Assembly (NCBI GenBank): GCA_000004985.1
Contig: GG738931.1
Source of the DNA: Naegleria gruberi
Lineage: Eukaryota
Strand: one strand, 5' to 3'
DNA length: 64,000 nt
A program made the translations under genes and the position numbers. The notes under the pieces were generated by a model, which was given only the letters and a program-made list of their open reading frames with translations, searched no databases and had not been told where the DNA came from. Positions 1-57,217 of this stretch are shown piece by piece. The stretch's first letter is position 1. Each line of letters opens with the position of its first letter.

Positions 1-388
1 CCAAACCCAAACCCAAACCCAAACCCAAACCCAAACCCAAACCCAAACCCAAACCCAAACCCAAACCCAAACCCAAACCCAAACCCAAACCCAAACCCAA
101 ACCCAAACCCAAACCCAAACCCAAACCCAAACCCAAACCCAAACCCAAACCCAAACCCAAACCCAAACCCAAACCCAAACCCAAACCCAAACCCAAACCC
201 AAACCCAAACCCAAACCCAAACCCAAACCCAAACCCAAACCCAAACCCAAACCCAAACCCAAACCCAAACCCAAACCCAAACCCAAACCCAAACCCAAAC
301 CCAAACCCAAACCCAAACCCAAACCCAAACCCAAACCCAAACCCAAACCCAAACCCAAACCCAAACCCAAACCCAAACCCAAACCCAA
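1..388. repeat. Terminal tandem array of about 64 CCCAAA units (TTTGGG on the G-strand). This is a candidate telomere at the contig/chromosome end.
   Basis: Perfect hexamer periodicity from base 1 to ~388. The C-rich strand reads 5'->3' on the + strand, as expected at a left chromosome end. Confidence 0.8.
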
Positions 389-961
389 CCTCCACCATTA
401 TAATAACTTCCAAATAAATATTATTCCAATTCCGAAACATCTTCTAAATAATTCCAATCAATATATATTTTTAAAATTATTATGAAACAACTCCTGATGA
501 TATGATGATATGATACGATGATACGATGATATGATGAGATGATTGAATGAGGAAGAGAAAGAGAAGACATCACATTTTTTTTGTATGTTACTTTTCCGTC
601 TCACAATTATCTATTCTATTTTTAAATTTTTCGGTTTGAAAATTATCATTGAAGATGAAATTTTGCAAATATTTAGAAACCTTCCTTCTTGATAATTACT
701 TAGTCGATCAAGGAGGAACAACGTTCTTTATCCATCATTTGGTCTGTTCCCCGATTTTAAATTATAAAATTTTCATTTTTACTCGCTTTTCTAACTTTCA
801 ATATTTGTCTTTCAAACCTGTGCCTTATTGTTCGATGAATATTTGATTTAAAGATGTCATCCTTTCAGGGTAGCTCCTCCTAAATATATAGAACAAGTTT
901 GTAAGATATCATAATGAATGGTTAAGTAGTTTTTCATTGAATAATCAAAGAGTATGTATTT

Positions 962-976
962 CCAAACCCAAACCTT
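962..976. repeat. Short interstitial telomere-like CCAAACCCAAACC tract.
   Basis: About 2.5 telomere units sit immediately 5' of the dispersed repeat. Confidence 0.5.
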
Positions 977-980
977 GAAC

Positions 981-1090
981 AATATTAAATTTCACTAAAA
1001 TATTAATATTATCAGATTTCCACAAATATTACTATTATAATGATGATAAATAACAATGATGATGGTTGGTAGTTGTTCCGATGTGATGGA
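981..1090 (+). repeat. Dispersed ~110-bp repeat, copy A. Copy B is at 54744-54856.
   Basis: About 95% identity over ~110 bp with 54744-54856 (aatattaaatttcactaaaatatta...gatgatggttggtagttgtt). Both copies lie 5' of +-strand F-box/LRR genes. Confidence 0.6.
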
Positions 1091-1108
1091 ACACGGTAGT
1101 ATCTGGAA

Positions 1109-1564
1109 TTGAAAAAAATGACTCAAGTTAAAGGTTTGTGTGATGATCAAAGTTTGCTAATGATTGTAATAGAAATATTTTCTGATGATGTAATTTATGA
1201 AATTATTTCCTATTTATGTGATGATTGGAAATTCGTATTATTAAATTGCGTAATGGTAACAAAACAATGGTTGAACGTCATCCGAGATCGATCCGAGCTT
1301 TCAATGATGGCGAATAATCATTTGGTCAATCAAGTAAATAATGAATTTTTGGATTGTTTTGTATCAATAACATTTGCACGCAATATTTTAAATGACAATT
1401 GGTTTAACATGTTAGGACGTATGACTCAATTGACCACTTTGGAAATTGGAAATAATCTAATTGATGACAATATGGTTAAATTAATTAGTGAAATGAAACA
1501 GTTGACAGGCCTTGATTTGGAAATCAATCAAATCTTCAATGAAGGAGCCAAATCCATCAGTGAA
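1109..1564 (+). CDS. F-box-like/LRR protein of the RNI-like family B. It is a 3'-truncated fragment that stops at the gap and the interstitial telomere array.
   Basis: ATG at 1109. F-box-like motif IFSDDVIYEIISYL...VTKQWLNVI, then LRR units (LTTLEIGNNLIDDNMVKLISEMKQLTGLDL). It is a paralog of the 28351-29335 gene. The tracked ORF continues into N's and CCCAAA, which is an artifact. Confidence 0.6.
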
Positions 1565-1614: not shown

Positions 1615-1865
1615 AACCCAACCCAAACCCAAACCCAAACCCAAACCCAACCCAAACCCAAACCCAAACCCAAACCCAAACCCAAACCCAAACCCAAACC
1701 CAAACCCAAACCCAAACCCAAACCCAAACCCAAACCCAAACCCAAACCCAAACCCAAACCCAAACCCAAACCCAAACCCAAACCCAAACCCAAACCCAAA
1801 CCCAAACCCAAACCCAAACCCAAACCCAAACCCAAACCCAAACCCAAACCCAAACCCAAACCCAA
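1615..1865. repeat. Interstitial (CCCAAA)n telomere-repeat array, about 42 units.
   Basis: Same hexamer as 1-388 with a few variant units (AACCCA). Confidence 0.8.
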
Positions 1866-1921
1866 GCCTAAAAACCCAAGCCTAAAAACCCAAGCCTAAA
1901 AACCCAAGCCTAAAAATCTAA
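1866..1921. repeat. Four copies of a 14-bp CCCAAGCCTAAAAA telomere-associated satellite.
   Basis: Direct tandem repeats, with degenerate copies continuing to ~1990. Similar motifs recur at 5281-5310. Confidence 0.6.
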
Positions 1922-2525
1922 ACCTTTGAACCTAAAATTGAAATACCAGACCCAATGTTTCAAAGTTCAAACCCTAGCCCAAATTATTGAATATTATATC
2001 ATTCGATTGTAAATGATGAGTAGAACAATGTATTATATTTAGTTTTTCAATTTATAAAATATTAACTTTGTAAATAATGTCAGATTAAAAATTATAAAAT
2101 GAAACCATAGGAAGAATGATAATTTCAAAATCCTTTAATGAGATTATATAGTATATATCTTCACTAACAACATTCATAATCACTCTCATATGAAATTTCT
2201 AAACTTCATGTCTGTAGGTATAAAAGTATCAAGTGAAAAGGGAAGATGTGAGGTAAAAGAGGTCAACAATAACTTTTGAGTTTCTCATCAAAACATATTG
2301 AATCCTAATATGAAAATGTTCCATTTGATTATTAAACATCGAATATCAAATTTATTTTAACTTTCATATTTAAAGATTTCTTCCCTCAACCACACATGGT
2401 CAACTATGATGAAAAGGTGGAAATCTTGATAAAGGACCACCTATTGAAACTTTACCAAAATGATTTATATGATCTATAGTGATATAGAATTCAATTTCAT
2501 ATCATAAGAATTAGAAATGGTACCA

Positions 2526-5162
2526 NNNNNNNNNNNNNNNNNNNNNNNNNNNNNNNNNNNNNNNNNNNNNNNNNNNNNNNNNNNNNNNNNNNNNNNNNNN
2601 NNNNNNNNNNNNNNNNNNNNNNNNNNNNNNNNNNNNNNNNNNNNNNNNNNNNNNNNNNNNNNNNNNNNNNNNNNNNNNNNNNNNNNNNNNNNNNNNNNNN
2701 NNNNNNNNNNNNNNNNNNNNNNNNNNNNNNNNNNNNNNNNNNNNNNNNNNNNNNNNNNNNNNNNNNNNNNNNNNNNNNNNNNNNNNNNNNNNNNNNNNNN
2801 NNNNNNNNNNNNNNNNNNNNNNNNNNNNNNNNNNNNNNNNNNNNNNNNNNNNNNNNNNNNNNNNNNNNNNNNNNNNNNNNNNNNNNNNNNNNNNNNNNNN
2901 NNNNNNNNNNNNNNNNNNNNNNNNNNNNNNNNNNNNNNNNNNNNNNNNNNNNNNNNNNNNNNNNNNNNNNNNNNNNNNNNNNNNNNNNNNNNNNNNNNNN
3001 NNNNNNNNNNNNNNNNNNNNNNNNNNNNNNNNNNNNNNNNNNNNNNNNNNNNNNNNNNNNNNNNNNNNNNNNNNNNNNNNNNNNNNNNNNNNNNNNNNNN
3101 NNNNNNNNNNNNNNNNNNNNNNNNNNNNNNNNNNNNNNNNNNNNNNNNNNNNNNNNNNNNNNNNNNNNNNNNNNNNNNNNNNNNNNNNNNNNNNNNNNNN
3201 NNNNNNNNNNNNNNNNNNNNNNNNNNNNNNNNNNNNNNNNNNNNNNNNNNNNNNNNNNNNNNNNNNNNNNNNNNNNNNNNNNNNNNNNNNNNNNNNNNNN
3301 NNNNNNNNNNNNNNNNNNNNNNNNNNNNNNNNNNNNNNNNNNNNNNNNNNNNNNNNNNNNNNNNNNNNNNNNNNNNNNNNNNNNNNNNNNNNNNNNNNNN
3401 NNNNNNNNNNNNNNNNNNNNNNNNNNNNNNNNNNNNNNNNNNNNNNNNNNNNNNNNNNNNNNNNNNNNNNNNNNNNNNNNNNNNNNNNNNNNNNNNNNNN
3501 NNNNNNNNNNNNNNNNNNNNNNNNNNNNNNNNNNNNNNNNNNNNNNNNNNNNNNNNNNNNNNNNNNNNNNNNNNNNNNNNNNNNNNNNNNNNNNNNNNNN
3601 NNNNNNNNNNNNNNNNNNNNNNNNNNNNNNNNNNNNNNNNNNNNNNNNNNNNNNNNNNNNNNNNNNNNNNNNNNNNNNNNNNNNNNNNNNNNNNNNNNNN
3701 NNNNNNNNNNNNNNNNNNNNNNNNNNNNNNNNNNNNNNNNNNNNNNNNNNNNNNNNNNNNNNNNNNNNNNNNNNNNNNNNNNNNNNNNNNNNNNNNNNNN
3801 NNNNNNNNNNNNNNNNNNNNNNNNNNNNNNNNNNNNNNNNNNNNNNNNNNNNNNNNNNNNNNNNNNNNNNNNNNNNNNNNNNNNNNNNNNNNNNNNNNNN
3901 NNNNNNNNNNNNNNNNNNNNNNNNNNNNNNNNNNNNNNNNNNNNNNNNNNNNNNNNNNNNNNNNNNNNNNNNNNNNNNNNNNNNNNNNNNNNNNNNNNNN
4001 NNNNNNNNNNNNNNNNNNNNNNNNNNNNNNNNNNNNNNNNNNNNNNNNNNNNNNNNNNNNNNNNNNNNNNNNNNNNNNNNNNNNNNNNNNNNNNNNNNNN
4101 NNNNNNNNNNNNNNNNNNNNNNNNNNNNNNNNNNNNNNNNNNNNNNNNNNNNNNNNNNNNNNNNNNNNNNNNNNNNNNNNNNNNNNNNNNNNNNNNNNNN
4201 NNNNNNNNNNNNNNNNNNNNNNNNNNNNNNNNNNNNNNNNNNNNNNNNNNNNNNNNNNNNNNNNNNNNNNNNNNNNNNNNNNNNNNNNNNNNNNNNNNNN
4301 NNNNNNNNNNNNNNNNNNNNNNNNNNNNNNNNNNNNNNNNNNNNNNNNNNNNNNNNNNNNNNNNNNNNNNNNNNNNNNNNNNNNNNNNNNNNNNNNNNNN
4401 NNNNNNNNNNNNNNNNNNNNNNNNNNNNNNNNNNNNNNNNNNNNNNNNNNNNNNNNNNNNNNNNNNNNNNNNNNNNNNNNNNNNNNNNNNNNNNNNNNNN
4501 NNNNNNNNNNNNNNNNNNNNNNNNNNNNNNNNNNNNNNNNNNNNNNNNNNNNNNNNNNNNNNNNNNNNNNNNNNNNNNNNNNNNNNNNNNNNNNNNNNNN
4601 NNNNNNNNNNNNNNNNNNNNNNNNNNNNNNNNNNNNNNNNNNNNNNNNNNNNNNNNNNNNNNNNNNNNNNNNNNNNNNNNNNNNNNNNNNNNNNNNNNNN
4701 NNNNNNNNNNNNNNNNNNNNNNNNNNNNNNNNNNNNNNNNNNNNNNNNNNNNNNNNNNNNNNNNNNNNNNNNNNNNNNNNNNNNNNNNNNNNNNNNNNNN
4801 NNNNNNNNNNNNNNNNNNNNNNNNNNNNNNNNNNNNNNNNNNNNNNNNNNNNNNNNNNNNNNNNNNNNNNNNNNNNNNNNNNNNNNNNNNNNNNNNNNNN
4901 NNNNNNNNNNNNNNNNNNNNNNNNNNNNNNNNNNNNNNNNNNNNNNNNNNNNNNNNNNNNNNNNNNNNNNNNNNNNNNNNNNNNNNNNNNNNNNNNNNNN
5001 NNNNNNNNNNNNNNNNNNNNNNNNNNNNNNNNNNNNNNNNNNNNNNNNNNNNNNNNNNNNNNNNNNNNNNNNNNNNNNNNNNNNNNNNNNNNNNNNNNNN
5101 NNNNNNNNNNNNNNNNNNNNNNNNNNNNNNNNNNNNNNNNNNNNNNNNNNNNNNNNNNNNNN
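2526..5162. other. Assembly gap (2637 N).
   Basis: Run of n. ORFs called across it are artifacts. Confidence 0.95.
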
Positions 5163-7606
5163 CACCCAATCCATATAATAATTGAACACAATATTTAACG
5201 TAGATAAAATCGATTTACTTTGAAAAGTAATTTTAAAAATTATACGCCAAAATAGAGCAGCTTTCTTGTAGTGTTGAATTTATTTGTCCGAAAACCCAAG
5301 AATCTAAACCTAAAAACCTATGCTAATTGAATATTCAATCTCATACCGGAAAAGATTCTTATTTGCGGAAAAAGATTCGAATCTTAGCGAATCTTCAATC
5401 AATTTCGAATGGAAACTGAATCTAAGAATCCAAGAATATCGAAATCTTTACCACTTTCCAAATAACAACGCAAACAACAAATACACCAAATCTCGATATC
5501 TAGATAGAAAGTATTTACTTTTTTTAAAACTTTACTGAAAAACCTTTCCAAAAGCCCAAGATTCACTTAAAGACTCTATATTAGATCATAAAGACCATGG
5601 TGCCACCGAAGTAACAAATCAAAACAACTCTAATCCATACCCAACCAACCTTTTATATTCATGATTTCAACTCTAACATGCCATCTGATAAACTATGGAC
5701 ACGGATGAATTTCTGGAAAATGACCACCCTATGAAACATTACCATCATGTTCCACATCTCAAATAATGTATATAATTCAGTTTTTAGACGTTTTGGTGAA
5801 CATTCCATCTTTCAGTAAGGTAAAGAGTGATTTATCAAGGTTGACTTAGGAAATCTTGAATATAGAAAACCATATCCTCAATCAACAAAATACATATCAA
5901 TCGATTGGAAATCATTAGTACATCTCGAAAATATCATTTATTTTATGTTTTGAAATCTCTCCTTTACCTCTTTTGGTCAATTAAGACAATTAAGGATGAG
6001 AATATAGGAAAAATTACCAATCTCAAAATAATTGATAATATCGAGTTCTACATCTCAAATAAAGTGGACTTTCATCAAATTATATGTTTTCATTTCAAGA
6101 AATGCATTCAGTAGATAGTACATGGTGATATTTCAAGAGAATGGAAATCTGAAGGATACAGAAACAACTCCATTTTCACTGAAATTGATATCATGGTATG
6201 CAGACACTCCAATTAGTATGTGGTATCAATTTCATGAATATTGGTTCAGTAGATGTCGAGATGTCAACTCTATCAATTTACTATAGATATTTGACATGAT
6301 ATCATAGATTATACTCCAACTCACTCATTTTACATATAACAAGTCTAGAATTGATACCACATAGTCTATATATCAATTAAATACATCTACAATAGTTTAG
6401 AAACATTTCAAACTACTTTCATAAAACTANNNNNNNNNNNNNNNNNNNNNNNNNNNNNNNNNNNNNNNNNNNNNNNNNNAGTTGAACACCATCGATAGCA
6501 AATCATCTCTAGTATGACATATATTTTTTATTGATCAATTTCTGATCATTCTTTTACCTTTCCCTAGGAATAGTAAAATCGCAATATATTGAGTGAGGAA
6601 TTGCTGATTATCTCAATAATTAGATAAGAAACCATACACAATCTATAGCCCACTGGATAGCTGAGATTGTAACCTATTTAATGATGTATATCATTGATTA
6701 TGTATTTCAATAATAATGAAGATCCAATGAGTACGAAACGATAACCAACCTCTCAGGTCTTTACGATACAAGAGACGTTAATAAATATTACAATTTACAT
6801 GTTACTTATTCATATTGCATGCAAATCAACCTGATTCAATCTACAAAGGTTGGTAGTTGCACCACTTCGTGGCGAAACTACCCATCCACGATGAATCAAC
6901 ATTAGATTCACTTCCATTCAACTCAATTTGACCGTTATAATCAATAAATCAATGAAATGTTTCTTTATTAGCAAACCCTATTCAATCTAATGAGTAGATT
7001 CACGTCCCAAACATTTGACTTCTAAAAGTCCATAATTCAAAAGTTAGTACTGACCTGACCTTTAAATATCTATCAATACAAGAAATGAAACCATCAAATT
7101 TACATCATTAATAGATGATAAGAAATATAATCAATGATATAAATCTTCACTAAGTAATCTCTTAAATAACCCAAATAAATCAACTCTGAATACTAAGTAC
7201 ATTATTTGGAAGAGCCACATAGATTTTGGATACTATCTGAACTGAAATGAGGTAGAAAGAGTACAATCTTCAACACCAAACAATTTATGTCTTATTAATA
7301 TTGTTCCAAGTGCGATAATTAGGACACAACATGAAATTTTACAAAATACCAATTATAATTTCGAATTAGTTGGTGAAATACGTAAAAATAATGCTAATGT
7401 TGCATATATTTGCTTCGGATTCTGAATTATTGATTTTAAAATCCGGGGAAATAAAGAAGGCCGAAAGCAAAATATCTAATATTGAAATAGAGGAACCATT
7501 CGATGGAACTACCACTTTACTATCAAAATGTTATGAAAATTAAGAGTATCATTCAGTTGATGCTTCTTCATCATATAATTTTCAATTTCCATTCATCATT
7601 CAGAAT

Positions 7607-17154: not shown

Positions 17155-17249
17155 TTTTTTTTCTAATCTCTGATTTACAATTGTGAATTTCCCAGTTTAA
17201 ATTGGAAATTGTAATCATTTACAATTTTGTAAAATTAAAATAAAAAAAA

Positions 17250-18806
17250 ATGACTGTAATACAAAATAACAACAAGAAGAGAAAGCACGAAGAATCATCA
17301 CAATTTCCTTCCGATGATGAATTTTGTGAGGATGGAAAAATAATGGACGAATCGGATTTATTTGAAGAATTGATGGAAGTGAATTGTAAATTAATTTCAT
17401 TGGCGAAAAAGGCAAAAGTTGTTGATTGTCGTTATTTTATGTACAATAGTGGAATAATTGATGAATTTATTGGCAATTTTTATGAATTTTTAAAACAAGC
17501 TGAGTTGCAACAGAAGAAGGCTGTAAAATCCTCTTCGGAACAGTTTAATTCGGATGTTTTATCAGAGATTTATCAATTCTTGGATACATCAACGGTCATA
17601 CATGGATGTGGATTGGTTTCTAAATTGTGGAATCAATCATTAAAGGGATTGAAATTGAAAGTCAGAGCTCAAAACATTGACATTTTATTGAATAGTTCAA
17701 TAATTACAAACATCACTCAATTGGAATTGGTTTCTACCACTGATGAAACATTTAAATTACTTTCAAATTGTAGAAATTTGGATAAACTGAACTCATTAGA
17801 TTTGTCAAGTAATAAGTTAGAAAAGGCATCCATTGATCATTTAATTAAATGTCATATGCCAAATTTGACAGAATTGAATTTGGCTTATATCAAACAATTT
17901 ACAGAAACAGCAGCAATAGAATTGTTAAACAGCCGTTTTATGAAAAGCATTAAGAAATTGGATTTATGTGAATCTTTAGAGAATTGTTCAAAGAATTTAT
18001 TTGCTTCCATTTCACAATCAAAAATTTTGAATCAAATCACCCACTTGAAAATTAATAGGTCCACTTATAATAGATACATAACGGACAAAGAGCATGGAAT
18101 TGATATTTTCTTGAATGATAAATTCAGTTTAGAACATTTAGAAACAGTACATTACCAATTGGATGTTCTTCCTAATTTATTAACAAATGGAAATTATAAG
18201 AATTTGACCTCACTTGATATTTGCAGTTGTAAAATTAGAAATCAAGTATTTGCAGATTTGATTGTTTCACCAAATTTACCCAATCTCACAAGTCTAAATG
18301 CTACGTATTTGCGTGAAGTGGATGACGACAAATCAGTTGCAGAATTTCCTCCAAATAGTGAAAGTTCACTTACTGATTTGGATTTGGGTAACTTCAGAGT
18401 AGCATCATTTCCTAAACTTGTTGATCATTGTCCAAAACTAAAGAAACTCATAGTTTATCCAGCAAATACCGATGAGGAATCAAAGAAAATACTTCTCAAT
18501 ATGATGAAATCTCCAAATTTATCTAATGTAGAATATTTGGACATATTATGTTGGAACGAAACATCAGAAATTATATTTACCAATCCAATCTTGTCTAATT
18601 TGAAGGAATTACATTTATCACCACTTCATTATGATGATACCGTAGACGTAAAATTAGTATCAAATTGTACAAATTTGATAAATTTAACAACGTTAATACC
18701 TTATACTGACATGGTAACTAAAGAGTGCTTACAGGAATTCAAGAAGAATCCAACCTTTGCAAAATTGAATATACGAGATTTTATGGGACGACCATTGATG
18801 ATTTGA
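17250..18806 (+). CDS. F-box-like/LRR protein, family A paralog 1 (518 aa).
   Basis: True ATG at 17250. F-box-like motif LNSDVLSEIYQFLDTSTVIHGCGLVSKLWNQS, then LRRs (NLTELNL, LTSLDICSCK, LSNLKELHL). About 45-50% identical to the 21596 ORF. Confidence 0.75.
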   Translation: MTVIQNNNKKRKHEESSQFPSDDEFCEDGKIMDESDLFEELMEVNCKLISLAKKAKVVDCRYFMYNSGIIDEFIGNFYEFLKQAELQQKKAVKSSSEQFNSDVLSEIYQFLDTSTVIHGCGLVSKLWNQSLKGLKLKVRAQNIDILLNSSIITNITQLELVSTTDETFKLLSNCRNLDKLNSLDLSSNKLEKASIDHLIKCHMPNLTELNLAYIKQFTETAAIELLNSRFMKSIKKLDLCESLENCSKNLFASISQSKILNQITHLKINRSTYNRYITDKEHGIDIFLNDKFSLEHLETVHYQLDVLPNLLTNGNYKNLTSLDICSCKIRNQVFADLIVSPNLPNLTSLNATYLREVDDDKSVAEFPPNSESSLTDLDLGNFRVASFPKLVDHCPKLKKLIVYPANTDEESKKILLNMMKSPNLSNVEYLDILCWNETSEIIFTNPILSNLKELHLSPLHYDDTVDVKLVSNCTNLINLTTLIPYTDMVTKECLQEFKKNPTFAKLNIRDFMGRPLMI

Positions 18807-19656
18807 TTTTTTGAGGAACATTACTTGATATTGAAAAATAATTCATATAAGCATTTTGACTTAGTATTGAACGATAAAGCGAATTTGAAGCATCCTTCAT
18901 ACGGTGAAATACTGAGTTTCTTTTGTTTTGGACAATAATCCAATAGTGAAGGAAAATATACAACTCTACAATATCTAAAGCATGATGAATTTGTTGGAAT
19001 CGGATGAAAGCTTAGATATTGAACTAGTTCAATTTAACATCATTTATTACTGAATTGGTGGTCAGCAAAGAATGCTCACACAATCCGACCTTTTCCGTTT
19101 TGAAAAAAATAGATCATTTTAGGATTCCAGAATTTATTGTGTAAACGTGTGCTAGAATTCTAATGATCTTACATTAAGCACTTGTTGGATAGTTCTTCTT
19201 TCCTATCTGTAATCCAGCAATGTAAAGCTAAAATAAATCAACAAAGTGGAATGTTTTGTAGCAAGAATAGATTTTCCTCCTTCTTTCATTAAGCACTAGT
19301 GTCACTCTATTAATTAATTGTGAAAACAACCAACCTTCTCCATTAACTGTTTAATTGAATGAAGTCAATAATTTAATCCAAAATTGATTTAAATAAACGT
19401 TTCCAATCTAATTATTCAGTTTCTATGGATTGCAGGTAGGAATGGAAAATAATCACAAATTAATGTGTATTTGAAAGAACTTTAAGTTTTGACATTTAGA
19501 GCTGGAGAGAATTTTGTGCATGGTAGAAGTTGGTGATTTTCTCGATAAATACTTATCATATTTTAAGAATTTCAACTTTCTGTGATAGAACAGGACCACT
19601 ACATGATACCCATAAAAGTTGGAGGTTCGAAAAATAGTATTGAGGAAGAAAAAGGT

Positions 19657-19737
19657 TGCAGAAGGTGGGATTTGAACCCACGAAGCTTGCGCAGTAGAAC
19701 TTGAGTCTACCCCCTTTGACCACTCGGGAACCCCTGC
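19657..19737 (-). tRNA. tRNA-Leu (anticodon CAA), 81 nt, no intron.
   Basis: Minus-strand read GCAGGGGTTCCCGAGTGGTCAAAGGGGGTAGACTCAAGTTCTACTGCGCAAGCTTCGTGGGTTCAAATCCCACCTTCTGCA. It has a 7-bp acceptor stem, D-arm, anticodon stem GTAGA/TCTAC with loop CTCAAGT, a long variable arm and a T-arm GGTTCAAATCC. It closely matches eukaryotic tRNA-Leu. Confidence 0.85.
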
Positions 19738-21509: not shown

Positions 21510-21595
21510 GTCCACAATCGATCATGACCATTGTGTAAATTTTTGTAAATAAAACAATAAAACAATTTTGTAATATTTTAGAAATAAGTAAAAAA

Positions 21596-23119
21596 ATGAC
21601 GGTAATTCAAAACAAGAAGAGGAAACATGAAGAATCATCACATCATGATGATGATGGAAAAATGTTTGATAATGCTGATAATATTGAATCGGTTTTATTT
21701 GAAGAAATGACGACAGTTAATTCCCAATTGCTTTCATTGGCAAACAAGATGAAACTGGTTGATAATATTTATTTTACAAAGAATACCGAAATGATTGATG
21801 AATTTATTGGAAATATTAACGAATTTTTGAAACAATTAGATATGCGTAGGAAGAAGGCTTTTTCTGAAAAATTGAATTCCGATATTTTGTCTTATATTTA
21901 TCAATTCTTGGATACAAATATTCTTAAAGAATGTTGTGGTTTAGTTTCTAAATTATGGAGACAATCAATAGGATTGAAAGTGAAAGTGAGAGATATTGAT
22001 ATTGATAAATTTGTAAATTGTTCACTAATTGAAAATGTAACGTACCTACAATTGGTTGATACTACTGAAGAACCAGAAACATTTAAATGGCTTGTAAATT
22101 GTAGAAATTTGGATAACTTGAAATCATTAGATTTATCTGAAATCGAATTGGAAAATGTAGAGTATTTAATGAAATGTCACATGCCTAATTTGACAGAATT
22201 GAATTTGGCGAAAAGGGTATCTGATGAGGAAGTGGTAATAGAATTGCTTACCAGTAGTTTCATGACCAGTGTTAAGAAATTGGATTTATCATATTCATTC
22301 TACGAATTTCCAATTGATATATATGAATCAATTTCAGAATCTAACTATTTGAGTCAAATCACTCATTTGAACCTTGATAATATGGAATATTTAGAATTTA
22401 CTGGGCTGGATTTACTGCTGAAAGATAAAGTGAATTTGGAACACCTACAAATACGCAAGCATTGTTTGGTTAGTTATCCAAATTTATTTACGAATGGAAA
22501 TTATATGAATCTCACATATCTTGATATTTCCAGTTGTCAATTAAGTAGAAATCAAGAATTTATAGATTTAATGTTTTCTCCAAACTTGCCAAATCTTACA
22601 ACACTCAAGGGCAAGGCGTTATGGGCCGAAGAAGATGGCAAAGAAAAAGACATAGTTGTTGAAATTCCTCCAAACAGTCAAAGTTCTCTCACTGATTTAG
22701 ATATAAGATATTGTAGGGTTGGATTTTATCCATCACTCTTTAATCACTGTCCAAAACTAAAGAAATTATCAGTTTATTCTTTACATGATGAGGAATCAAA
22801 GAAATTACATCTCAATATGATGAAATCTCCAAACTTGACAAATTTAGAATATTTGAAAATGGATAGTTGGAATGAAGCATCAGAAATTATCTTTACCAAT
22901 CCAATCTATTCGAATTTAAAGGAATTACATTTAGTAAGACCATTCAGGAATGGTGAAAACTTAAATGTAGAACTAGTATCAAACTGTAACAATTTGGTCA
23001 ATTTAACAACATTAACTGTATCTGTTGAAACACAAGACTTGCAAGAATTCCAGAAAAATCCCACATTTTCCAAACTGAAAAGAATATCCAATATTGTAAT
23101 ACCACAAAAAAGGCTATGA
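21596..23119 (+). CDS. F-box-like/LRR protein, family A paralog 2 (507 aa).
   Basis: ATG at 21596. The N-terminus MTVIQNKKRKHEESS is almost identical to paralog 1. F-box-like motif LNSDILSYIYQFLDTNILKECCGLVSKLWRQS, then LRRs. Confidence 0.75.
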   Translation: MTVIQNKKRKHEESSHHDDDGKMFDNADNIESVLFEEMTTVNSQLLSLANKMKLVDNIYFTKNTEMIDEFIGNINEFLKQLDMRRKKAFSEKLNSDILSYIYQFLDTNILKECCGLVSKLWRQSIGLKVKVRDIDIDKFVNCSLIENVTYLQLVDTTEEPETFKWLVNCRNLDNLKSLDLSEIELENVEYLMKCHMPNLTELNLAKRVSDEEVVIELLTSSFMTSVKKLDLSYSFYEFPIDIYESISESNYLSQITHLNLDNMEYLEFTGLDLLLKDKVNLEHLQIRKHCLVSYPNLFTNGNYMNLTYLDISSCQLSRNQEFIDLMFSPNLPNLTTLKGKALWAEEDGKEKDIVVEIPPNSQSSLTDLDIRYCRVGFYPSLFNHCPKLKKLSVYSLHDEESKKLHLNMMKSPNLTNLEYLKMDSWNEASEIIFTNPIYSNLKELHLVRPFRNGENLNVELVSNCNNLVNLTTLTVSVETQDLQEFQKNPTFSKLKRISNIVIPQKRL

Positions 23120-27653: not shown

Positions 27654-28350
27654 TTTTTTTTTCTGATATTAAGGCGCGAAATTCTAGAAATTTGAACAAT
27701 TAAGGAAAATCTGGCGGTGAATAGGAATTTTTCGTTGATGATTTTGCATTCTGAATTTTGATAAAGTTTAAAATTTTATTTAAAATCTAATTATTATTAA
27801 ATATTCCAATTATTCCCAACATATTTTTAATTTTTAAAAATTATTGAAAAAAATACGTGAAATGCTCAACCACCAATTACAAAGCAATGATGGAAGAATT
27901 TAAAAAAACAGCCACAATATCTGTGGTCAGGTTCTCGGCGCATTTTTGTGATGCTCCCAAAAAACATGGAATGCTCCCAAAGCTGATTTACCTGTAGGGG
28001 TAATTGGATGCGCCAATAACACCGATTTATTACTTAAGCAAATTCACTCAACTTCAACAAAGCATATCTCAATAACAACACTGGATGTTAGAGAAACATA
28101 CCGTATGGTCATTATTAATTATGTTAACAATCATAATATCAAGTTTGTTACTGATTTGGCTCTTTACTTATCGAGAAAAGTGATTTCAAAATTTTCATAT
28201 GTGGTAGTAAGACGAGCATGTTTTCTTGGTTAATACAAATAACTGATATTCAATAAAACAGAATCTTGTAGAAAACATCAATTAGAACAAGAATAATAAA
28301 TAATATTTTTATTTCACTAAGTATTAAATTTAATATTTCCTTTTTTGTAA

Positions 28351-29335
28351 GGAGCATTGCAAAAATACGGGAAAAACATTTCCACAGATATCCGAAGTAA
28401 ATTATTTACTCTTCTCCGATGATGTTCTCTATGAAATTTTTTCTTTTCATGATGATTTTAAATTTATGGTCATGAGTTGTGCATTAGTTTCAAAACAATG
28501 GTTTAATGTCATTGTTAATCGGTGCAAACTTACATTGAAATGCGAAAATAATAGGATGCAAAAGAAAGGTCAATTTTTACAAAATGTAACAAATCTTCTC
28601 TTTAAAAGAGAAATTGGTGCATTTGATTATAAATTATTAAATTTGATGAAAGGAATAACAACTCTGACAATTAATTACAATAGTATAGGAGTGGAAGGAG
28701 CCATGCATATTAGCAAAATGGAGCAATTGACAAATCTTGATATTTGTAATAGTGTTCTTTATGAAGAAGGAGCAAAATATATTAGTCAACTGGAACAATT
28801 GAAATGTCTAGATATTGGTTCAAACAGTATAGGCAAAAACGGAGCTAAATATATTAGTGGAATGAAACAGTTGACAAGATTAGATATTTTTAATAATACT
28901 ATTTGTGAGGAGGGAGCCAAGTCAATCAGTGAAATGAAGCAATTGACTCATCTCAAAATTACCTTCAATGACATTGGAACAGAAGGAGCCAAATACATTA
29001 GTCAACTGCGAAAATTAACACATCTAGACATCAGTTCCAATGATATTGGTGCTAAGGGTTCCAAATACATTAGTGAAATGAATCAATTGACCATTCTTAA
29101 TATTTATAATAATGATATTGGAAATGAAGGAGTGAAACACATTAGTGAAATGAATCAATTAACAAGGTTGGATATTGGTGATAATGAAATTAGTGCTGAG
29201 GGAGTTAAATATATTAGTGGCATGAAACAATTGACAAACCTTGATATTTCATGGAATAATATTGGAGATGAGGGAGCTCAATTTCTTAGTCAAATGAAAC
29301 AATTAATTTATCTTGAATTTATTACTTTGGATTAA
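28351..29335 (+). CDS. F-box-like/LRR protein of the RNI-like family B, paralog 2. The 5' end is incomplete.
   Basis: The open frame from 28334 encodes ...LFSDDVLYEIFSFHDDFKFMVMSCALVSKQWFNVI (F-box-like), then at least 9 units of a 28-aa LRR (LTxLDIxxNxIGxEGAKYISxMKQ). There is no in-frame ATG before the F-box. A strong acceptor (ttccttttttgtaag|G) at 28350 suggests an unseen 5' exon. Confidence 0.6.
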
Positions 29336-32323: not shown

Positions 32324-32457
32324 TTTTACATCATCATCATGATGATGAAAAGCATCCCCGTATTTTAATTTATTTTTACAATAAAAATATTAAGGGATTC
32401 AATATTTAATATTTTTAAGAAAGATACGTATTCTCTACTAATCAGGTAATTTGCAAA

Positions 32458-37672: not shown

Positions 37673-38026
37673 ACTGTTGTTGTTGTGTTGTTTTTTCTTA
37701 ATAATTGTAGTTGTATGGAGCTGAAATGAATAGGGTCTATAAATCAAAAATTGGTGGACCTCAGATCTTCCCATTCCTTCATGGTTAGACCAGTACTTTC
37801 TAAAATGGATTTTTGTATATTCGATCTCCAAAAATATAAGTCCATGGCAAAATGAAAAGTTGTAATGAAATTGGCGGGTTGAAATCAAAAAATACTTGTT
37901 TAGAATATCATACAATTGTAGACAATTAAAATCCAAGTTTAGTTAGTCTTCATCTATCTTACAATATAAAGGTGACAATGTCTAGAAGTGGAAACCATAA
38001 ATGTTATATTTAGTGTTAATCAGTAA

Positions 38027-48683: not shown

Positions 48684-49050
48684 TCTTCTATTTTTTTTTT
48701 GATTTTGTGTTTTTGAAACTTTTCTTCCTTTAAAAGGTTTTTGTAAAATGTGCGTCGTCTGTTAGTGCACACGCGGATTTTTGTAATCACAAGTGAAAAT
48801 TGTTGCGCACAAATTAAGGAACGGGTGAAATTTTAATTTTGTGAGGATCAAGTGTGCTAATGGAGAATCAATTAATACTTTTCATTATTTTCGTTTGATT
48901 CACTAAATGTCCGTGGTCTGTGAGCTGTCCATCCCATTGACCAATAACTATTCGAAATTTACACTATTCTTCATCAATACTGGGTTTCTACCTTCAATTC
49001 CTATCTAAATAAATGGAGTTGGGCTGAGTTAGAACTTGGAGTTGTTTATT

Positions 49051-52271: not shown

Positions 52272-53738
52272 TTATTTTCTATTGATAATTGAAAGATCTG
52301 TAAATGGATGTGGTGACTTGACAATATAATTAAACTTGTTAGGAAATAATGTAAATTGGTTCCTTCTATAATTGACTTTAACAATGGTACCAACAGCAAT
52401 AGTTGCACGTCCATCCCTAATTATAATTCTTCCAAGTTTGTTGCAATCATTGTAGCTATCCACAAATAATGGAACAGTAGGTGCCAATTCAACAAGTGCT
52501 ACATCTCCTATTTCAAGACAGGATGGATTTTCCTCAATTATTATTGAGCTATCTGTAGGATTCAATATCCCAATCAATTTCTCAAATTTAGTATTGGCAA
52601 AAGCTAGCCCACAATGTACTATTGGAGCATAACCAGCCCTTATTGAGGGTTTAGGAGTATTAATTATTGAAATTTGTGCTATAAACCTGGATGCTGCCTT
52701 ACATGGTGAAAAATATGGATCGCTTATTATGTAACCAGTTTTAGTTGGTGGCAGATTATCGAATTCAATACCAACCAGAGAGTTGGAAAATGCTCTCTCC
52801 TTGTTGGTATGTGAAATTTGAATATTCTTCACTCTCACATTAATCAATTCTCCACTATGCACTCGTGGAATTTGAACTGTCATTCCAACCTTAACCATTC
52901 CACTAATAATATATCCAGCAAGAATGCCATTCGGCAACTTGGGTTTAAAAATTGCAATTCTCAATGGCTCTCGCAAACATTCCTCAACAGTCCTTTGAAA
53001 GTTGGTTTCCATATTATTCAACGTTTCAGTGAGTGTTTTTCCACAATACCATTTCATATTTTCTGACCTCTCAAAAACATTATCTCCACACTCTCCACAA
53101 ATTGGAATGAATGGAATTTCTTGCTTGATTCCAACTGTCTTGATTAATTTACCAATACTTGTTTTAATTTCCAAAAATCTCTTCTCTGAATATTTCACAC
53201 AATCCATCTTATTGACACACACTATGAACCTCTCAATTCCAGCAACTTTTGAATAAATTAGTTGCTGCTTATAAGAAAATGATAGATTCTCTCGGTGGAA
53301 TCCAGCTTCAAACTCTCCATCAGATGCACTAACCACCATCAAACAAACATTTCCCATCGAAATCCCTTGAATTGTCTTCTTTATAAAATCACCATGTCCA
53401 GGTGTGTCAATAATCCGAAATTGACAAGCAGACAATTCAATTACATGTTTAGCATTCACATCAGTACTTATTTCTCTCTCTGCCTGAGTTGGAGAATCCA
53501 GCATGAGTGAAGAGATATGAAAATGATTTCTATTTCCCATCCATGATTGAATTCCAAATCGTTGAAAAATCGCTTGTTGTCCTTGCTGATAAAGCTCACA
53601 TTGACGCTTTAATTGTTCATAAACTTGTGGTTTAATTTTTCTTACCAATTGACCACCAAGTGTTGATTTTCCGCAGTCTACAAATCCAATCAAGACTAGA
53701 TTAAATTCTTCGGGTTTGATTTTTCTATGATCAGACAT
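52272..53738 (-). CDS. Divergent EF1A/EFL-like translational GTPase (488 aa).
   Basis: ATG at 53738. G1 NLVLIGFVDCGKST, G3 DTPGHGDF, G4 NKMD, then beta-barrel domains II and III (LPNGILAGYIISGMVKVGMTV...). There is no N-terminal extension, so it is EF1A-like rather than eRF3/HBS1-like. Confidence 0.65.
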   Translation of the reverse strand: MSDHRKIKPEEFNLVLIGFVDCGKSTLGGQLVRKIKPQVYEQLKRQCELYQQGQQAIFQRFGIQSWMGNRNHFHISSLMLDSPTQAEREISTDVNAKHVIELSACQFRIIDTPGHGDFIKKTIQGISMGNVCLMVVSASDGEFEAGFHRENLSFSYKQQLIYSKVAGIERFIVCVNKMDCVKYSEKRFLEIKTSIGKLIKTVGIKQEIPFIPICGECGDNVFERSENMKWYCGKTLTETLNNMETNFQRTVEECLREPLRIAIFKPKLPNGILAGYIISGMVKVGMTVQIPRVHSGELINVRVKNIQISHTNKERAFSNSLVGIEFDNLPPTKTGYIISDPYFSPCKAASRFIAQISIINTPKPSIRAGYAPIVHCGLAFANTKFEKLIGILNPTDSSIIIEENPSCLEIGDVALVELAPTVPLFVDSYNDCNKLGRIIIRDGRATIAVGTIVKVNYRRNQFTLFPNKFNYIVKSPHPFTDLSIINRK

Positions 53739-54743
53739 TTTTTTTTAAATAAAATTACAAAAAATTTAATTAATTGGAAATTTAATAATTGCAACAAATA
53801 TATTAATGCATTTGTTCCAGGCAATTATATTCGAATAAAATTTATGCGAATAAATTTCATACTAAATAAATTCGCATGGTTTGGTAATGCGAAATTCATT
53901 CTTATGGTCATAACTTCCATAAATAAAGGATATGTTGAGCAAAGGTGTTTATCATTCTCCTTTTCCAATATTTGAGGAACAACCAATAAGACCAAAACCA
54001 TCGTGAAAAGTCATATTTTATATGGTGTTAAAGATTAGACTCTTTCTTCCTGATTTCAATTCAGGGAGTGTCCAAAATTTGTACAACATTTCCAAACAAT
54101 CATGATATCAATCCCTCCTCATATCATGAAGTGAGAAATCATATTTATATGAAGAATAACCTCAGAATAATTTGCAAGATTTCAAAAACCTAAATACACA
54201 AAAACACAATAAAACATGATTAGAGAATCAACAATGGATTATTTACATGTAACTTGTCTAGTTTACATCAACAAATATGGTGTAGGTGATATGAAATTTA
54301 ATTAAAAACAGAAAAATCAAAATCTTCATGATTTCAACGAAACAAGACGAAACAATTGATATAGTACATCTACAATAGTACAAATAAAAGTTTATTAATG
54401 TTTCAAGATGATTGGCTGTGTACTTTTGGCATGAATCATGATTGGTGACCATGAATAACCCGAAGTTGACAAAAACACAAAATGATGAAAAACTTATAAT
54501 AAATATATTGTTTATTATGTATTTGAATAGTAGTGATGAAAGACATTTTCCAAGTTGGTGAAGTACATGTTGAGATATAGTCTATGTACATGTGAAAATA
54601 TACATGTACCTAACATCATGATAACCAATAGGGAAATGTTCGGAAGTTATTTTACCTGATGGAATCGACCATGCTGAACAATACTAGATTGAAAGTTTTC
54701 CAAATTATCATGTGCATCTGGCAGTGATGATGATTTTAGTGAA

Positions 54744-54856
54744 AATATTCAATTTCACTAAAATATTACTATTATCAGATTTATTTCCGCAAATATTACT
54801 ATTATAATGATGATAAATAACAATGATGATGGTTGGTAGTTGTTTCGATGATGATG
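54744..54856 (+). repeat. Dispersed ~110-bp repeat, copy B.
   Basis: About 95% identical to 981-1090. It lies ~400 bp 5' of the 55265 LRR gene. Confidence 0.6.
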
Positions 54857-55264: not shown

Positions 55265-57217
55265 ATGAAAACAAATCAACAACGAAGGAAGCCTTCGATT
55301 TTCTACGATACAATTTTTTTATTATCGGATGGCTATTTTTTTATTGATCAAGTGCTTCCGTTCTTCTGCTTTGCAGATTTTGAAAATTTATTTCTCACGT
55401 GTAGGGAGGTGGCACGATTGGTGAGCAAACAGCACCATGTTCGGTATTTGGTTAGAGTTAATGAACAGGCATTTAAGTGTCATCAACGATGGAGTGATTT
55501 TAATAATCATCATCAATATAGGAAAAGGGAATTTCCATCGTTGTTGCATTTTGCGGATGGGATAAAGATTTATCTGGAAGTAGTTGGAGGATTAGTGGAT
55601 AAAGTTATTGAATATTGTGGAAAGAGTAACAAGTCATTGAGTATTTGTTATAGAAACAACTATTATTCGAACCATGCCGAGTTGATGAAAAAGCTTGATA
55701 GCCCATCATTCAATAGGGTTAATACTTTTGGATTGTTACAGGCTGATATCGATAGTTATGAACCATTCTTAAAATTGTTTGCAGGGAAGAATGTGAAGAA
55801 GATTGAACTTTCAGCAGGATATTTCAGGAATGATTTCATTTCTATCACAAAACCAATTCTTGAAAAGATTAATTTTGGAGAGGTGCATTTTTCCATTTCC
55901 GGCTTTTATTACTCTATCGCTAGTTTGGCTGAAACCTTATCTAAAATGGATGTGAATGATAGAAATAAGATTAGGATTACAATAGGCAATGGTTGTACTA
56001 TTACTGGAAGTGATTATAGTTCCCTGAAGAACTTGGCGAATTTATTTCAATTTCAAACAATCACTATTTCAGACCCACCTCTAGTATCTCATCTTGTTGA
56101 TTGTAATTTTAGTTTGTTTGCGAATTCTTATAATGTAGAGGCAAAATCACTTACAAATATTGAAGATGTTGCTTTTCCCAAATTCTCAAACAACAAACCA
56201 CCTAGTTTTGAAATGAAGTATATTGAATTATCACTCACACCTACGAATGTTAATAACTTTCATGTATTGCACACAACAAAATATTTAACCTTATTAACCA
56301 TGAATAATTGCTCTATTGAGTTTTCTAATATAGAAAAACTAGAGTTGAATCTACTTCAATCTTTGAAATTGAATAAGTGCTCATTTATGAAAAATGGCAT
56401 AGAATCTAATATTGAATTTATTGAATGGATAGATACGGAAAGGCTTATAAATTTAACATGTGAATTCCTCAAGTTGAAAAAGATTCCTAATATCAAGTCA
56501 AAAGCACTTCACAATTTGAAAATTAGCAATAATGAAATCGAAACTATTGACCTGGAAACTTTGAATAGTCATAAATATTTGGCCTATCTGGATTTGAGAC
56601 ACAACAAATTGAGTGATCCAGATAATATTAACATGATTGTTGGAAAATATAGTCAATTGGATTTGGAAGGTAATCCAGCTTTAAATAATGTGATGATTGA
56701 CAAGAAGAAATTAGAGGTTATTACTGATTTCAAATACAATACCAATAGAGGAAGTAAGGTTATCACAAGACCTCTATTTTCAGGAACAGACACGGAGATT
56801 TTCAAATCATTCAAATCAGCTCTGAAAAGAAACAAGAACACTTTGCCTCCATTCAACAGCAAGGAGGACCTGATACAAGTAATAGAAAATCCAAAAAAGC
56901 TCACTAGCATTGAAAATACGAATGTAATATTCTGGAACAATAATTATAGCAACAACCAGAAATCATTTTCTTGTGATGGAAATTTAACTCGTGTTGGAAA
57001 AATTTCTTCACACTTTTGTCAGATTGCAATTCATCTCAATTCAAAATTACAACATCAATATGGTATGAAGTGGCTGCTATTTGGATTTAATGAATTCAAC
57101 GTAGAGCCATTGGATAATGAAAAAGTAATGTCTCAACTTTCGTATATTGTTCATGAGTGGTCCTTCATGTCTTCACACATTGAATTTGTTCGGGAATTGA
57201 GAAGAACATATCCATAG
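55265..57217 (+). CDS. F-box-like/LRR protein, family C (about 650 aa).
   Basis: The first in-frame ATG is at 55265; the track's start at 55238 is TTG. N-terminus IFLLSDGYFFIDQVLPFFCFADFENLFLTCREVARLV, then C-terminal LRRs (LHNLKISNNEIETIDLETLNSHKYLAYLDLRHNKLSD). Confidence 0.6.
   Translation: MKTNQQRRKPSIFYDTIFLLSDGYFFIDQVLPFFCFADFENLFLTCREVARLVSKQHHVRYLVRVNEQAFKCHQRWSDFNNHHQYRKREFPSLLHFADGIKIYLEVVGGLVDKVIEYCGKSNKSLSICYRNNYYSNHAELMKKLDSPSFNRVNTFGLLQADIDSYEPFLKLFAGKNVKKIELSAGYFRNDFISITKPILEKINFGEVHFSISGFYYSIASLAETLSKMDVNDRNKIRITIGNGCTITGSDYSSLKNLANLFQFQTITISDPPLVSHLVDCNFSLFANSYNVEAKSLTNIEDVAFPKFSNNKPPSFEMKYIELSLTPTNVNNFHVLHTTKYLTLLTMNNCSIEFSNIEKLELNLLQSLKLNKCSFMKNGIESNIEFIEWIDTERLINLTCEFLKLKKIPNIKSKALHNLKISNNEIETIDLETLNSHKYLAYLDLRHNKLSDPDNINMIVGKYSQLDLEGNPALNNVMIDKKKLEVITDFKYNTNRGSKVITRPLFSGTDTEIFKSFKSALKRNKNTLPPFNSKEDLIQVIENPKKLTSIENTNVIFWNNNYSNNQKSFSCDGNLTRVGKISSHFCQIAIHLNSKLQHQYGMKWLLFGFNEFNVEPLDNEKVMSQLSYIVHEWSFMSSHIEFVRELRRTYP

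What the first reader, a model, noticed from the sequence alone, without database searches (positions are those of the whole stretch)
962..1108. Dispersed ~110-bp element, preceded by a telomere-like tract, 5' of two different LRR genes
981-1090 and 54744-54856 are about 95% identical and in the same orientation. Copy A abuts the ATG of the family B F-box/LRR gene and is preceded by CCAAACCCAAACC. Copy B lies ~400 bp upstream of the family C LRR gene. This could be a shared promoter or 5'-UTR module spread by subtelomeric recombination, or a small non-autonomous mobile element.
Basis: seen in the sequence. Interest (0 to 1): 0.5.

Follow-up and report, generated by a model that had tools for sequence, protein, structure and literature searches.

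The report
Low-copy repeat beside relic telomere tract
A ~115-bp AT-rich non-coding stretch occurs twice at this Naegleria gruberi chromosome end, and one copy starts exactly at a 13-bp leftover of telomere repeat, so it looks like an ordinary scar of chromosome-end repair rather than a demonstrated promoter or mobile element.

Summary
Copy A (976-1088) and copy B (54740-54856) match at 108 of 112 aligned bases, with 3 small indels, in the same orientation (E 6e-42). It is the most similar repeat pair in the window. The window is the end of a Naegleria gruberi NEG-M scaffold. CCAAACCCAAACC (962-974) is 2.2 units of that species' TTTGGG-type telomere repeat and has the same orientation as the terminal array at 1-388. 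It ends one base before the A/B homology starts. In copy B that same point lies inside a perfect 12-bp hairpin.

The element has no ORF, no significant RNA fold, no Rfam match, no terminal inverted repeats, no target-site duplication and no tail. It sits 29 nt (A) and 408 nt (B) from the downstream start codons. It is absent upstream of the paralogous genes, which are far older (40-45% amino-acid identity).

Best reading (about 0.45): a recently copied patch of DNA whose copy-A edge was set by a break healed by telomerase, in a patchwork subtelomere. A multi-copy mobile or repeat family (about 0.25) and a regulatory module (about 0.1) cannot be excluded. The N. gruberi genome could not be searched, so genome-wide copy number is unknown. 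Interest is low.

The parts
976..1088 (+). Copy A of the repeat (113 nt, 24.5% G+C). Weak similarity may continue to 1093.
   Evidence: Local alignment and BLASTN against copy B.
54740..54856 (+). Copy B of the repeat (117 nt). It contains a 15-nt internal direct repeat AAATATTACTATTAT at 54761 and 54791.
962..974 (+). Interstitial telomere tract CCAAACCCAAACC (2.2 units, C-strand, same orientation as the terminal array). One base (T975) separates it from copy A.
   Evidence: Read directly. It is unique in the non-telomeric part of the window, with about 0.006 expected by chance. TTTGGG is the candidate N. gruberi telomere repeat (PMC3622300).
1..388 (+). Terminal telomere-type array, (CCCAAA) x 64.7 with 100% matches, at the scaffold end.
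389..961 (.). Distal block between the terminal array and the interstitial tract. It is AT-rich, has no ORF longer than 65 aa, and carries a GATGATA-type microsatellite at 495-543. It has no other copy in the window.
1118..1564 (+). Truncated ORF (149 codons) that runs into a 50-N gap. It is a paralog of the F-box-like/LRR_6 ORF at 28385-29332. The start codon context aaaaaaATG is typical of genes in this window.
   Evidence: No relative was found in the protein database.
1615..1865 (+). Second telomere-type array (98% matches, same orientation), immediately after the 50-N gap.
54733..54764 (.). Perfect 12-bp inverted repeat ATTTTAGTGAAA / TTTCACTAAAAT with an 8-nt spacer at the left edge of copy B. 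The A/B homology starts inside its left arm (54740). Copy A keeps only the right arm.
   Evidence: together with the alignment.
55265..57217 (+). Gene downstream of copy B: an N. gruberi 'predicted protein' of 650 aa with weak LRR_8 similarity. Its closest paralog is 45% identical.
52272..53738 (-). EF-Tu/eEF1A-like GTPase gene, divergent from the gene above. Copy B lies in the 1,526-bp spacer between the two.

Best explanation
The element is a non-coding, probably functionless patch of DNA. It was copied recently between an internal intergenic site (copy B, or an unseen relative of it) and a chromosome end (copy A).

I infer that the left limit of copy A is not an end of the element itself. 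It is the point where a broken chromosome was healed. Telomerase extended the 3' end of the minus strand (...AATATTGTTCAA-3') with GGTTTGGGTTTGG..., and a 13-nt remnant of that addition survives at 962-974. The break fell in the left arm of a 12-bp hairpin that is still intact in copy B.

Later the end was extended again. A 573-bp distal block carrying its own telomere was acquired, as yeast chromosome ends acquire Y' elements through their internal telomere tracts. This left the short tract interstitial.

The right limit (1088-1093 / 54856-54861) lies in GATGATG simple sequence, a likely microhomology junction.

Shown: the two copies, their identity, the junction geometry and the orientation. 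Inferred: the healing event, the order of events, the direction of copying and the lack of function.
For: - **Subtelomeric setting.** The window is a scaffold end of N. gruberi NEG-M, with exact matches to EFC36366-EFC36407. It carries a perfect terminal (CCCAAA)n array, and TTTGGG is the reported candidate telomere repeat of this species (PMC3622300).
- **The tract is not chance.** The 13-nt tract is unique outside the arrays, with about 0.006 expected. It has the orientation that healing of the centromere-side fragment predicts, and it ends one base before the homology begins.
- **Hairpin at the breakpoint.** In copy B the same point lies inside a perfect 12-bp inverted repeat. Copy A retains only the proximal arm.
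- **The copy event is young compared with its surroundings.** The pair shows 3.6% substitutions. Non-ORF DNA differs by 6.2% between NEG-M and an environmental N. gruberi-like lineage. All gene paralogs in the window are about 70% identical at DNA level. The flanking genes' closest relatives are only 40-45% identical in protein or undetectable. The patch therefore moved independently of the genes.
- **No homology in the flanks** on either side. This argues against gene conversion and against a decayed larger duplication.
- **No sign of a product.** There are stops in most frames and frame-shifting indels between the copies. Fold z-scores run from +0.5 to -1.2. Rfam gives nothing at gathering score and only E > 0.9 otherwise.
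- **A patchwork end.** A second same-orientation telomere array at 1615-1865 and degenerate subtelomeric repeats show that this end is built from successive terminal additions.
- **Precedent.** Telomere repeats inserted at break sites, sometimes together with 31-118-nt foreign fragments, are documented in mammals (PMC2246262).
Against: - Only two copies were seen, so neither the direction of copying nor the existence of a larger family is known.
- Copy B lies at least 54 kb from the scaffold end. This is not a simple exchange between two chromosome ends.
- A healed break explains the left edge of copy A but not the right edge, which needs a second junction.
- Copy A sits in a 1,564-bp contig bounded by an N gap. 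The order of contigs in the first 6.5 kb depends on scaffolding that I cannot verify.
- Both copies face a downstream gene in the same orientation. A functional reading would predict this, although it happens by chance half the time.
- No orthologous 'empty site' could be obtained to prove that either copy is an insertion.
Confidence: 0.45

Rival explanations
1. The element belongs to a small non-autonomous mobile element family, or is a fragment of a larger repeat or transposon, with many more copies elsewhere in the 41-Mb genome. The two copies seen here are independent insertions, and the telomere tract next to copy A is a coincidence of subtelomeric location.
For: The block has sharp edges on both sides, high identity (96.4%) and no flanking homology. 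The copy event is much younger than the neighbouring genes. Another short dispersed repeat (53996-54100 vs 7305-7201) lies in the same intergenic region, so short repeats do occur in this genome's spacers.
Against: - No terminal inverted repeats and no target-site duplication at either copy. The GATGATGAT flanking B on the right is shared with A, so it is part of the homology.
- No A-rich or simple-sequence tail, and no tRNA-like or pol III head.
- Only two copies in 60.5 kb of non-telomeric sequence, and the apparent third copy is chance.
- No exact matches to 22-30-nt cores in JGI metagenome, IMG/VR or prokaryote genome collections, though these are not expected to hold Naegleria DNA.
- No called ORF anywhere in the protein database carries any reading frame of the element.
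Confidence: 0.25
2. The element is a shared cis-regulatory module (promoter, 5'-UTR or uORF cassette) that drives or tunes the two downstream LRR-type genes. It keeps its high identity through selection or recent recruitment.
For: Both copies are upstream of, and co-oriented with, a + strand gene. In copy A a TATA-like TATTATAA (1031-1038) lies about 80 nt before ATG 1118. A 10-codon uORF (ATGATGATAAATAACAATGATGATGGTTGGTAG) is identical in both copies.
Against: - Spacing to the start codon is 29 vs 408 nt, with several ATGs in between for copy B.
- The module is absent upstream of the copy-A gene's paralog at 28.4 kb and upstream of 20 other genes.
- The two downstream genes are not close relatives of each other.
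- Uniform 96% identity with abrupt ends is the signature of a recent copy, not of long-term constraint. The 55-bp perfect run is not significant given 7 differences (my estimate, p about 0.07).
- TATA-like words are common in 24% G+C DNA.
Confidence: 0.1
3. Copy A (telomere tract plus fragment) is a telomerase-mediated repair insert that carries a retro-copied piece of an abundant non-coding RNA such as the telomerase RNA itself, like rodent TERC-ITS loci. Copy B would be the source gene or another such insert. A variant of this idea is capture of a fragment of the extrachromosomal rDNA plasmid or of mitochondrial DNA.
For: The anatomy matches the rodent loci, where telomere repeats sit directly next to a 31-118-nt dispersed fragment (PMC2246262). 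The spacer holding copy B is unusually long (1,526 bp against a median of a few hundred), which leaves room for an unannotated RNA gene. I found no description of a Naegleria telomerase RNA.
Against: - No template-like word of 8 nt or more lies in the copy-B spacer.
- The element has no significant fold and is only 24.5% G+C.
- Weak C/D-box snoRNA hits (E > 1) come from UGAUGA words, and no CUGA D box is present.
- No frame of the element matches any protein, which argues against an origin in mitochondrial coding DNA.
- No rRNA match.
Confidence: 0.04
4. Copy A or its junctions are an assembly or cloning artefact of a low-coverage 1.56-kb Sanger contig at a scaffold end.
For: Copy A lies in a short contig bounded by a 50-N gap, and a second telomere array follows that gap, which is suspicious for scaffolding.
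Against: The copy differs from B at 4 substitutions and 3 indels, so it is not simply a misplaced read of locus B. An artefact would need two independent chimeric junctions. The downstream ORF stays open for 149 codons and has a normal start context.
Confidence: 0.06

Closest known systems
Subtelomeric block boundaries marked by interstitial telomere repeats (yeast X-Y' junctions, human subtelomeric duplicon boundaries); from established knowledge
   Same: A short telomere tract, in the same orientation as the terminal array and a few hundred bp inside it, sits exactly at the edge of a block that is duplicated elsewhere. A further same-orientation array lies 640 bp further in.
   Different: The duplicated block is only about 115 bp, not kilobases. 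Its second copy is at least 54 kb from the scaffold end rather than at another chromosome end. Whether the distal 573-bp block recurs at other ends is unknown.
Interstitial telomeric sequences inserted at double-strand-break repair sites, including rodent TERC-ITS loci (Nergadze et al. 2007, PMC2246262)
   Same: Exact telomere units adjoin a dispersed non-telomeric fragment of about 100 nt. The fragment length falls within the reported 31-118 nt range.
   Different: Here the tract is subtelomeric and co-oriented with the real telomere, so a relic chromosome end is a simpler explanation. The fragment's source is unknown, and no empty orthologous site is available.
MITEs / SINEs (short non-autonomous mobile elements)
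   Same: Size (about 115 bp), AT-richness, non-coding nature, intergenic location near genes, sharp edges.
   Different: No inverted termini, no target-site duplication, no tail and no pol III head. Only two copies were seen.
70-bp repeats upstream of VSG genes in Trypanosoma brucei (a fellow member of Discoba); from established knowledge
   Same: A short AT-rich repeat lies 5' of members of variable gene families near telomeres, where it could serve as a 5' boundary for recombination.
   Different: Here there is a single unit rather than an array, the downstream genes are unrelated to each other, one copy is not near a telomere, and nothing shows duplicative transposition of the genes.

Membership tests
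MITE | Terminal inverted repeats | tested here: not met
   The two ends of the homologous block are not complementary. The only strong inverted repeat (54733-54764) lies wholly at the left edge of copy B and is half-missing in copy A.
MITE | Target-site duplication flanking each copy | tested here: not met
   Flanks are A: AAACCT | ... | GAACACGG and B: TTTTAG | ... | TACCAAC. No direct repeat abuts the edges. The GATGATGAT on the right of B lies inside the A/B homology.
MITE / SINE | Many copies dispersed in the genome | not testable with these tools
   There are two copies in this window.
SINE | tRNA/5S/7SL-derived head with pol III boxes and a 3' A-rich or simple-repeat tail | tested here: not met
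   ARAGORN and Rfam find no tRNA-like or other RNA match in either copy. Both copies end in GATG(A)TGATG with no tail.
Solo LTR | TG...CA termini with a 4-6-bp target-site duplication | tested here: not met
   Both copies begin with TG, and a CA occurs near 1092/54860, but the flanks carry no duplication.
Subtelomeric duplicon with an interstitial telomere boundary | Location within the subtelomere, next to a terminal telomere array | tested here: met
   Met for copy A only: 976 lies 587 nt inside the array at 1-388. Copy B is at least 54 kb from the end.
Subtelomeric duplicon with an interstitial telomere boundary | Telomere tract at the block edge, in the same orientation as the terminal array | tested here: met
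   962-974 is C-strand, like 1-388. Homology to B starts at 976.
Subtelomeric duplicon with an interstitial telomere boundary | Other copies at other chromosome ends | not testable with these tools
   This needs the whole assembly.
Core promoter / 5'-UTR module | Fixed position relative to the transcription or translation start | tested here: not met
   29 nt vs 408 nt to the start codon.
Core promoter / 5'-UTR module | Transcripts start in or just after the element | not testable with these tools
   No transcript data are available here.
C/D-box snoRNA | C box (RUGAUGA) near the 5' end and D box (CUGA) near the 3' end, with a terminal stem; Rfam score above gathering | tested here: not met
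   UGAUGA words are present, but there is no CUGA in either copy. All Rfam snoRNA hits score 12-18 bits against cut-offs of 35-50, with E > 1.
TERC-ITS-type repair insert | Telomere repeats directly adjoining a non-telomeric fragment | tested here: met
   Copy A only.
TERC-ITS-type repair insert | Fragment identical to part of the telomerase RNA; orthologous empty site | not testable with these tools
   The Naegleria telomerase RNA is not described in the literature I searched, and no ortholog of either locus could be retrieved.

The most novel reading that the evidence does not exclude
The 113-nt unit is a retro-copied piece of the still unidentified Naegleria telomerase RNA, or of another abundant non-coding RNA, inserted together with telomere repeats during break repair as in rodent TERC-ITS loci. 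Copy B, or an unseen copy, would mark the source gene. That would give a direct handle on a heterolobosean telomerase RNA.
Probability: 0.03. Interest if true: 0.7.

Novelty: new member of a known kind. Interest (0 to 1): 0.18.

Why it matters
The practical value is modest.

- **Chromosome-end structure.** The finding documents, at base resolution, how one Naegleria gruberi chromosome end is built. Three telomere tracts of the same orientation lie within 1.9 kb and delimit nested terminal blocks. One block edge coincides with a hairpin in the source sequence. This is a concrete, testable example of chromosome healing and stepwise terminal addition in a heterolobosean, a group whose telomere biology is almost undescribed.
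- **Assembly quality.** It flags the first 6.5 kb of this scaffold as needing long-read validation.
- **Limits of the evidence.** It gives no evidence of a new regulatory or mobile system.

Tried and rejected
- **Reaching the N. gruberi genome.** I tried three times through exact-protein look-ups, and none is on record. One ENA metagenome (ERZ929261) holds N. gruberi-like contigs, but none covers either locus.
- **Searching public collections for core words of the element.** JGI metagenomes twice, IMG/VR three times and prokaryote genomes once all returned nothing. These collections are not expected to contain Naegleria, so the result is a weak negative.
- **Searching the protein database.** The copy-A ORF gave no hit. 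An artificial concatenation of all open frames of both copies, meant to catch ORFs called over other copies, gave nothing at E <= 1.
- **Literature.** A full-text search for two core words of the element found nothing.
- **A possible third, partial copy at 2311-2357 in the second subtelomeric contig.** Rejected, because 23% of shuffled queries score as well.
- **Shared upstream homology with the paralog at 28.4 kb.** The ATTTCACTAA word is not collinear, and the same word occurs in reverse within LRR coding repeats. Rejected as chance.
- **Coding relic.** The minus strand reads ...NNYQPSSLLFIIIIIVIFVEI*. Rejected because the 4-nt and 1-nt indels shift the frame between copies and no protein matches.
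- **Structured RNA, snoRNA or tRNA-derived element.** Rejected.
- **Telomerase RNA gene at locus B.** No template-like word is present.
- **Gene conversion between promoters.** Rejected because there is no flanking homology.

Full report
**What the window is.** Ten long ORFs were looked up by exact sequence. Six are identical to Naegleria gruberi NEG-M proteins (EFC36366 to EFC36407) carried on a 138,333-bp scaffold. The window starts with 388 bp of perfect (CCCAAA)n. TTTGGG is the candidate telomere repeat reported for N. gruberi from genome data (PMC3622300). The window is therefore a chromosome or scaffold end. Its first 6.5 kb is made of four short contigs joined by N runs at 1565-1614, 2526-5162 and 6430-6479. 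A second array of the same orientation (1615-1865) follows directly after the first gap.

**The observation.** The two copies are real. A local alignment gives A 976-1088 against B 54740-54856. There are 108 matches, 4 substitutions (A987/C, A1006/C, A1022/G, C1078/T) and 3 indels of 1, 4 and 1 nt. BLASTN gives E 6e-42. A looser scoring scheme extends the match to 1093/54861. In a self-comparison of the window this is the most similar repeat pair by a wide margin. The next best pair is 82% over 60 nt, and all gene paralogs are about 70% identical. No third copy exists in the window. The best remaining hit (2311-2357, 30.1 bits) is equalled by 46 of 201 shuffled queries.

The tract CCAAACCCAAACC lies at 962-974. 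It is the only telomere-phase word of 10 nt or more outside the arrays. About 0.006 such 13-mers would be expected by chance in 60.5 kb.

Copy A ends 29 nt before ATG 1118, so it is close to the ATG but does not strictly abut it. Copy B ends 408 nt before ATG 55265, the start of the annotated 650-aa protein.

**The neighbours.**
- The ORF at 1118-1564 is cut off by the gap. It is 40% identical (E 1e-24) to the ORF at 28385-29332, which scores strongly for LRR_6 and weakly for F-box-like. Its start context, aaaaaaATG, is the one seen at many genes here. It has no detectable relative in the 5.8-billion-protein database.
- The gene after copy B has only a sub-threshold LRR_8 match and a single paralog at 45% identity.
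- Copy B lies in a 1,526-bp spacer between that gene and a divergent EF-Tu-like GTPase gene.

**What the element is not.**
- It is not coding. Most frames contain stops, the indels shift the frame between copies, and a concatenation of every open frame of both copies finds no protein at E <= 1.
- It is not a structured RNA. Fold z-scores are +0.54, -0.85, -1.16 and -1.16 for the two copies on both strands. Rfam gives only a tRNA-Leu elsewhere at gathering score. At E <= 10 it gives only weak hits, mostly C/D-snoRNA (12-18 bits) caused by UGAUGA words, and no CUGA box is present.
- It has no inverted termini, no target-site duplication, no tail and no tRNA-like head.
- It is not a general upstream motif. 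None of 20 other upstream regions, including that of the copy-A gene's paralog, resembles it.

**The informative detail is the left junction.** The telomere tract ends at 974 and the homology begins at 976. Read on the minus strand, the sequence is ...AATATTGTTCA-A-GGTTTGGGTTTGG. This is a 3' end followed by G-strand repeats pointing toward the chromosome end. That is the product expected if telomerase healed the centromere-side fragment of a break.

In copy B the corresponding position (54740) lies inside the left arm of a perfect 12-bp inverted repeat, ATTTTAGTGAAA / TTTCACTAAAAT at 54733-54764. Copy A keeps only the right arm. The left limit of copy A is therefore best read as a breakpoint, not as an end of a discrete element.

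The tract is now interstitial because a 573-bp block (389-961) with its own telomere lies distal to it. With the array at 1615-1865, there are three same-orientation telomere tracts in 1.9 kb. This is the nested structure known from yeast Y'/X junctions and human subtelomeric duplicon boundaries (established knowledge). The right limit lies in GATG(A)TGATG simple sequence, a plausible microhomology junction (inference).

**Age.** A contig from an ENA metagenome (L001) is orthologous to 48580-51623 and comes from an N. gruberi-like lineage. Against it, ORF DNA differs by 1.3-2.6%. Non-ORF DNA differs by 6.2%, with one indel per about 50 bp. The A/B pair differs by 3.6%, with one indel per about 38 bp. 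If the copies evolve neutrally, the copy event is no older than the split of these lineages. It is far younger than the flanking genes' duplications (40-45% protein identity). The patch therefore moved on its own, and it was not inherited together with the genes. There is no homology in the flanks, which argues against gene conversion and against a decayed larger duplication.

**Explanations.**
- **Repair patch (about 0.45).** I favour a recently copied, functionless patch whose copy-A edge was set by a healed break in a patchwork subtelomere.
- **Multi-copy mobile or repeat family (about 0.25).** This stays open because copy number in the 41-Mb genome could not be measured. The collections I could scan are not expected to hold Naegleria DNA.
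- **Regulatory module (about 0.1).** This is disfavoured by the 29 vs 408 nt spacing and by the element's absence upstream of related genes.
- **Assembly artefact (about 0.06).** This is unlikely because copy A differs from B at seven sites and would need two chimeric junctions.
- **Telomerase-RNA-derived insert (about 0.03-0.04).** In rodents, telomere repeats inserted at break sites are sometimes joined to 31-118-nt pieces of the telomerase RNA (PMC2246262), and copy A has that anatomy. But no template-like word of 8 nt or more lies near copy B, the fold is unremarkable, and I found no described Naegleria telomerase RNA to compare with.

**Verdict.** The 'subtelomeric recombination' part of the interpretation fits copy A. 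The promoter and mobile-element readings are unsupported by any feature I could test, though not excluded. This is a new example of a known kind of chromosome-end scar, and it is of low general interest.

Noticed in passing
window 1-388, 962-974, 1615-1865: Three telomere-type tracts of the same orientation lie within 1.9 kb. The second long array follows a 50-N gap. This is either a nested, Y'-like terminal structure or a scaffolding artefact that joins two chromosome ends.
   Followed up: partly
window 1858-1916: A 14-bp telomere-variant repeat, AAACCCAAGCCTAA, occurs 4 times directly proximal to the second array.
   Followed up: no
window 1969-2497 and 5650-6193: Degenerate subtelomeric repeats are shared between the second and third contigs: 1969-2167 ~ 5867-6062, 2361-2497 ~ 5650-5783, and 5707-5899 ~ 6000-6193, at 61-66% identity.
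   Followed up: no
window 53996-54100 and 7201-7305: A second short dispersed repeat, inverted and 73-80% identical. One copy lies in the same intergenic spacer as copy B, the other in the spacer just inside the last assembly gap.
   Followed up: no
window 53739-55264: The palindromic octamer ATCATGAT occurs 5 times in this 1,526-bp divergent spacer (54099, 54435, 54615, 54897, 54948), out of 12 occurrences in the whole window (binomial P about 7e-6). It may be a repeated factor-binding site. Two of the sites bracket copy B.
   Followed up: partly
window 19657-19737 (-): A tRNA-Leu(CAA) gene lies between two F-box/LRR paralogs.
   Followed up: no
window 17221-18769, 21562-23079, 31064-32344: Three paralogous F-box/LRR genes at about 70% DNA identity, the third inverted. 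A further short inverted match, 18917-18976 vs 22706-22765, is 82% identical.
   Followed up: no
window 28300-28470: The paralog of the copy-A gene has an in-frame stop and no ATG upstream of its F-box-like region. The exact ORF from ATG 28466 is not in the protein collection. Either it has an upstream exon (a GTAAGG...CACAG candidate intron at about 28338-28388) or it is a pseudogene.
   Followed up: no
L001 (ENA ERZ929261, PRJEB11402) vs window 48580-51623: An environmental metagenome contains contigs of an N. gruberi-like lineage. This one is 94.2% identical in DNA, and the 502-aa protein is 99.6% identical.
   Followed up: partly
window 33584-37936 (-) and 57235-59766 (-): Two large secreted or membrane proteins with teneurin-type EGF repeat arrays (105-bp period). 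One of them also has NHL repeats.
   Followed up: no
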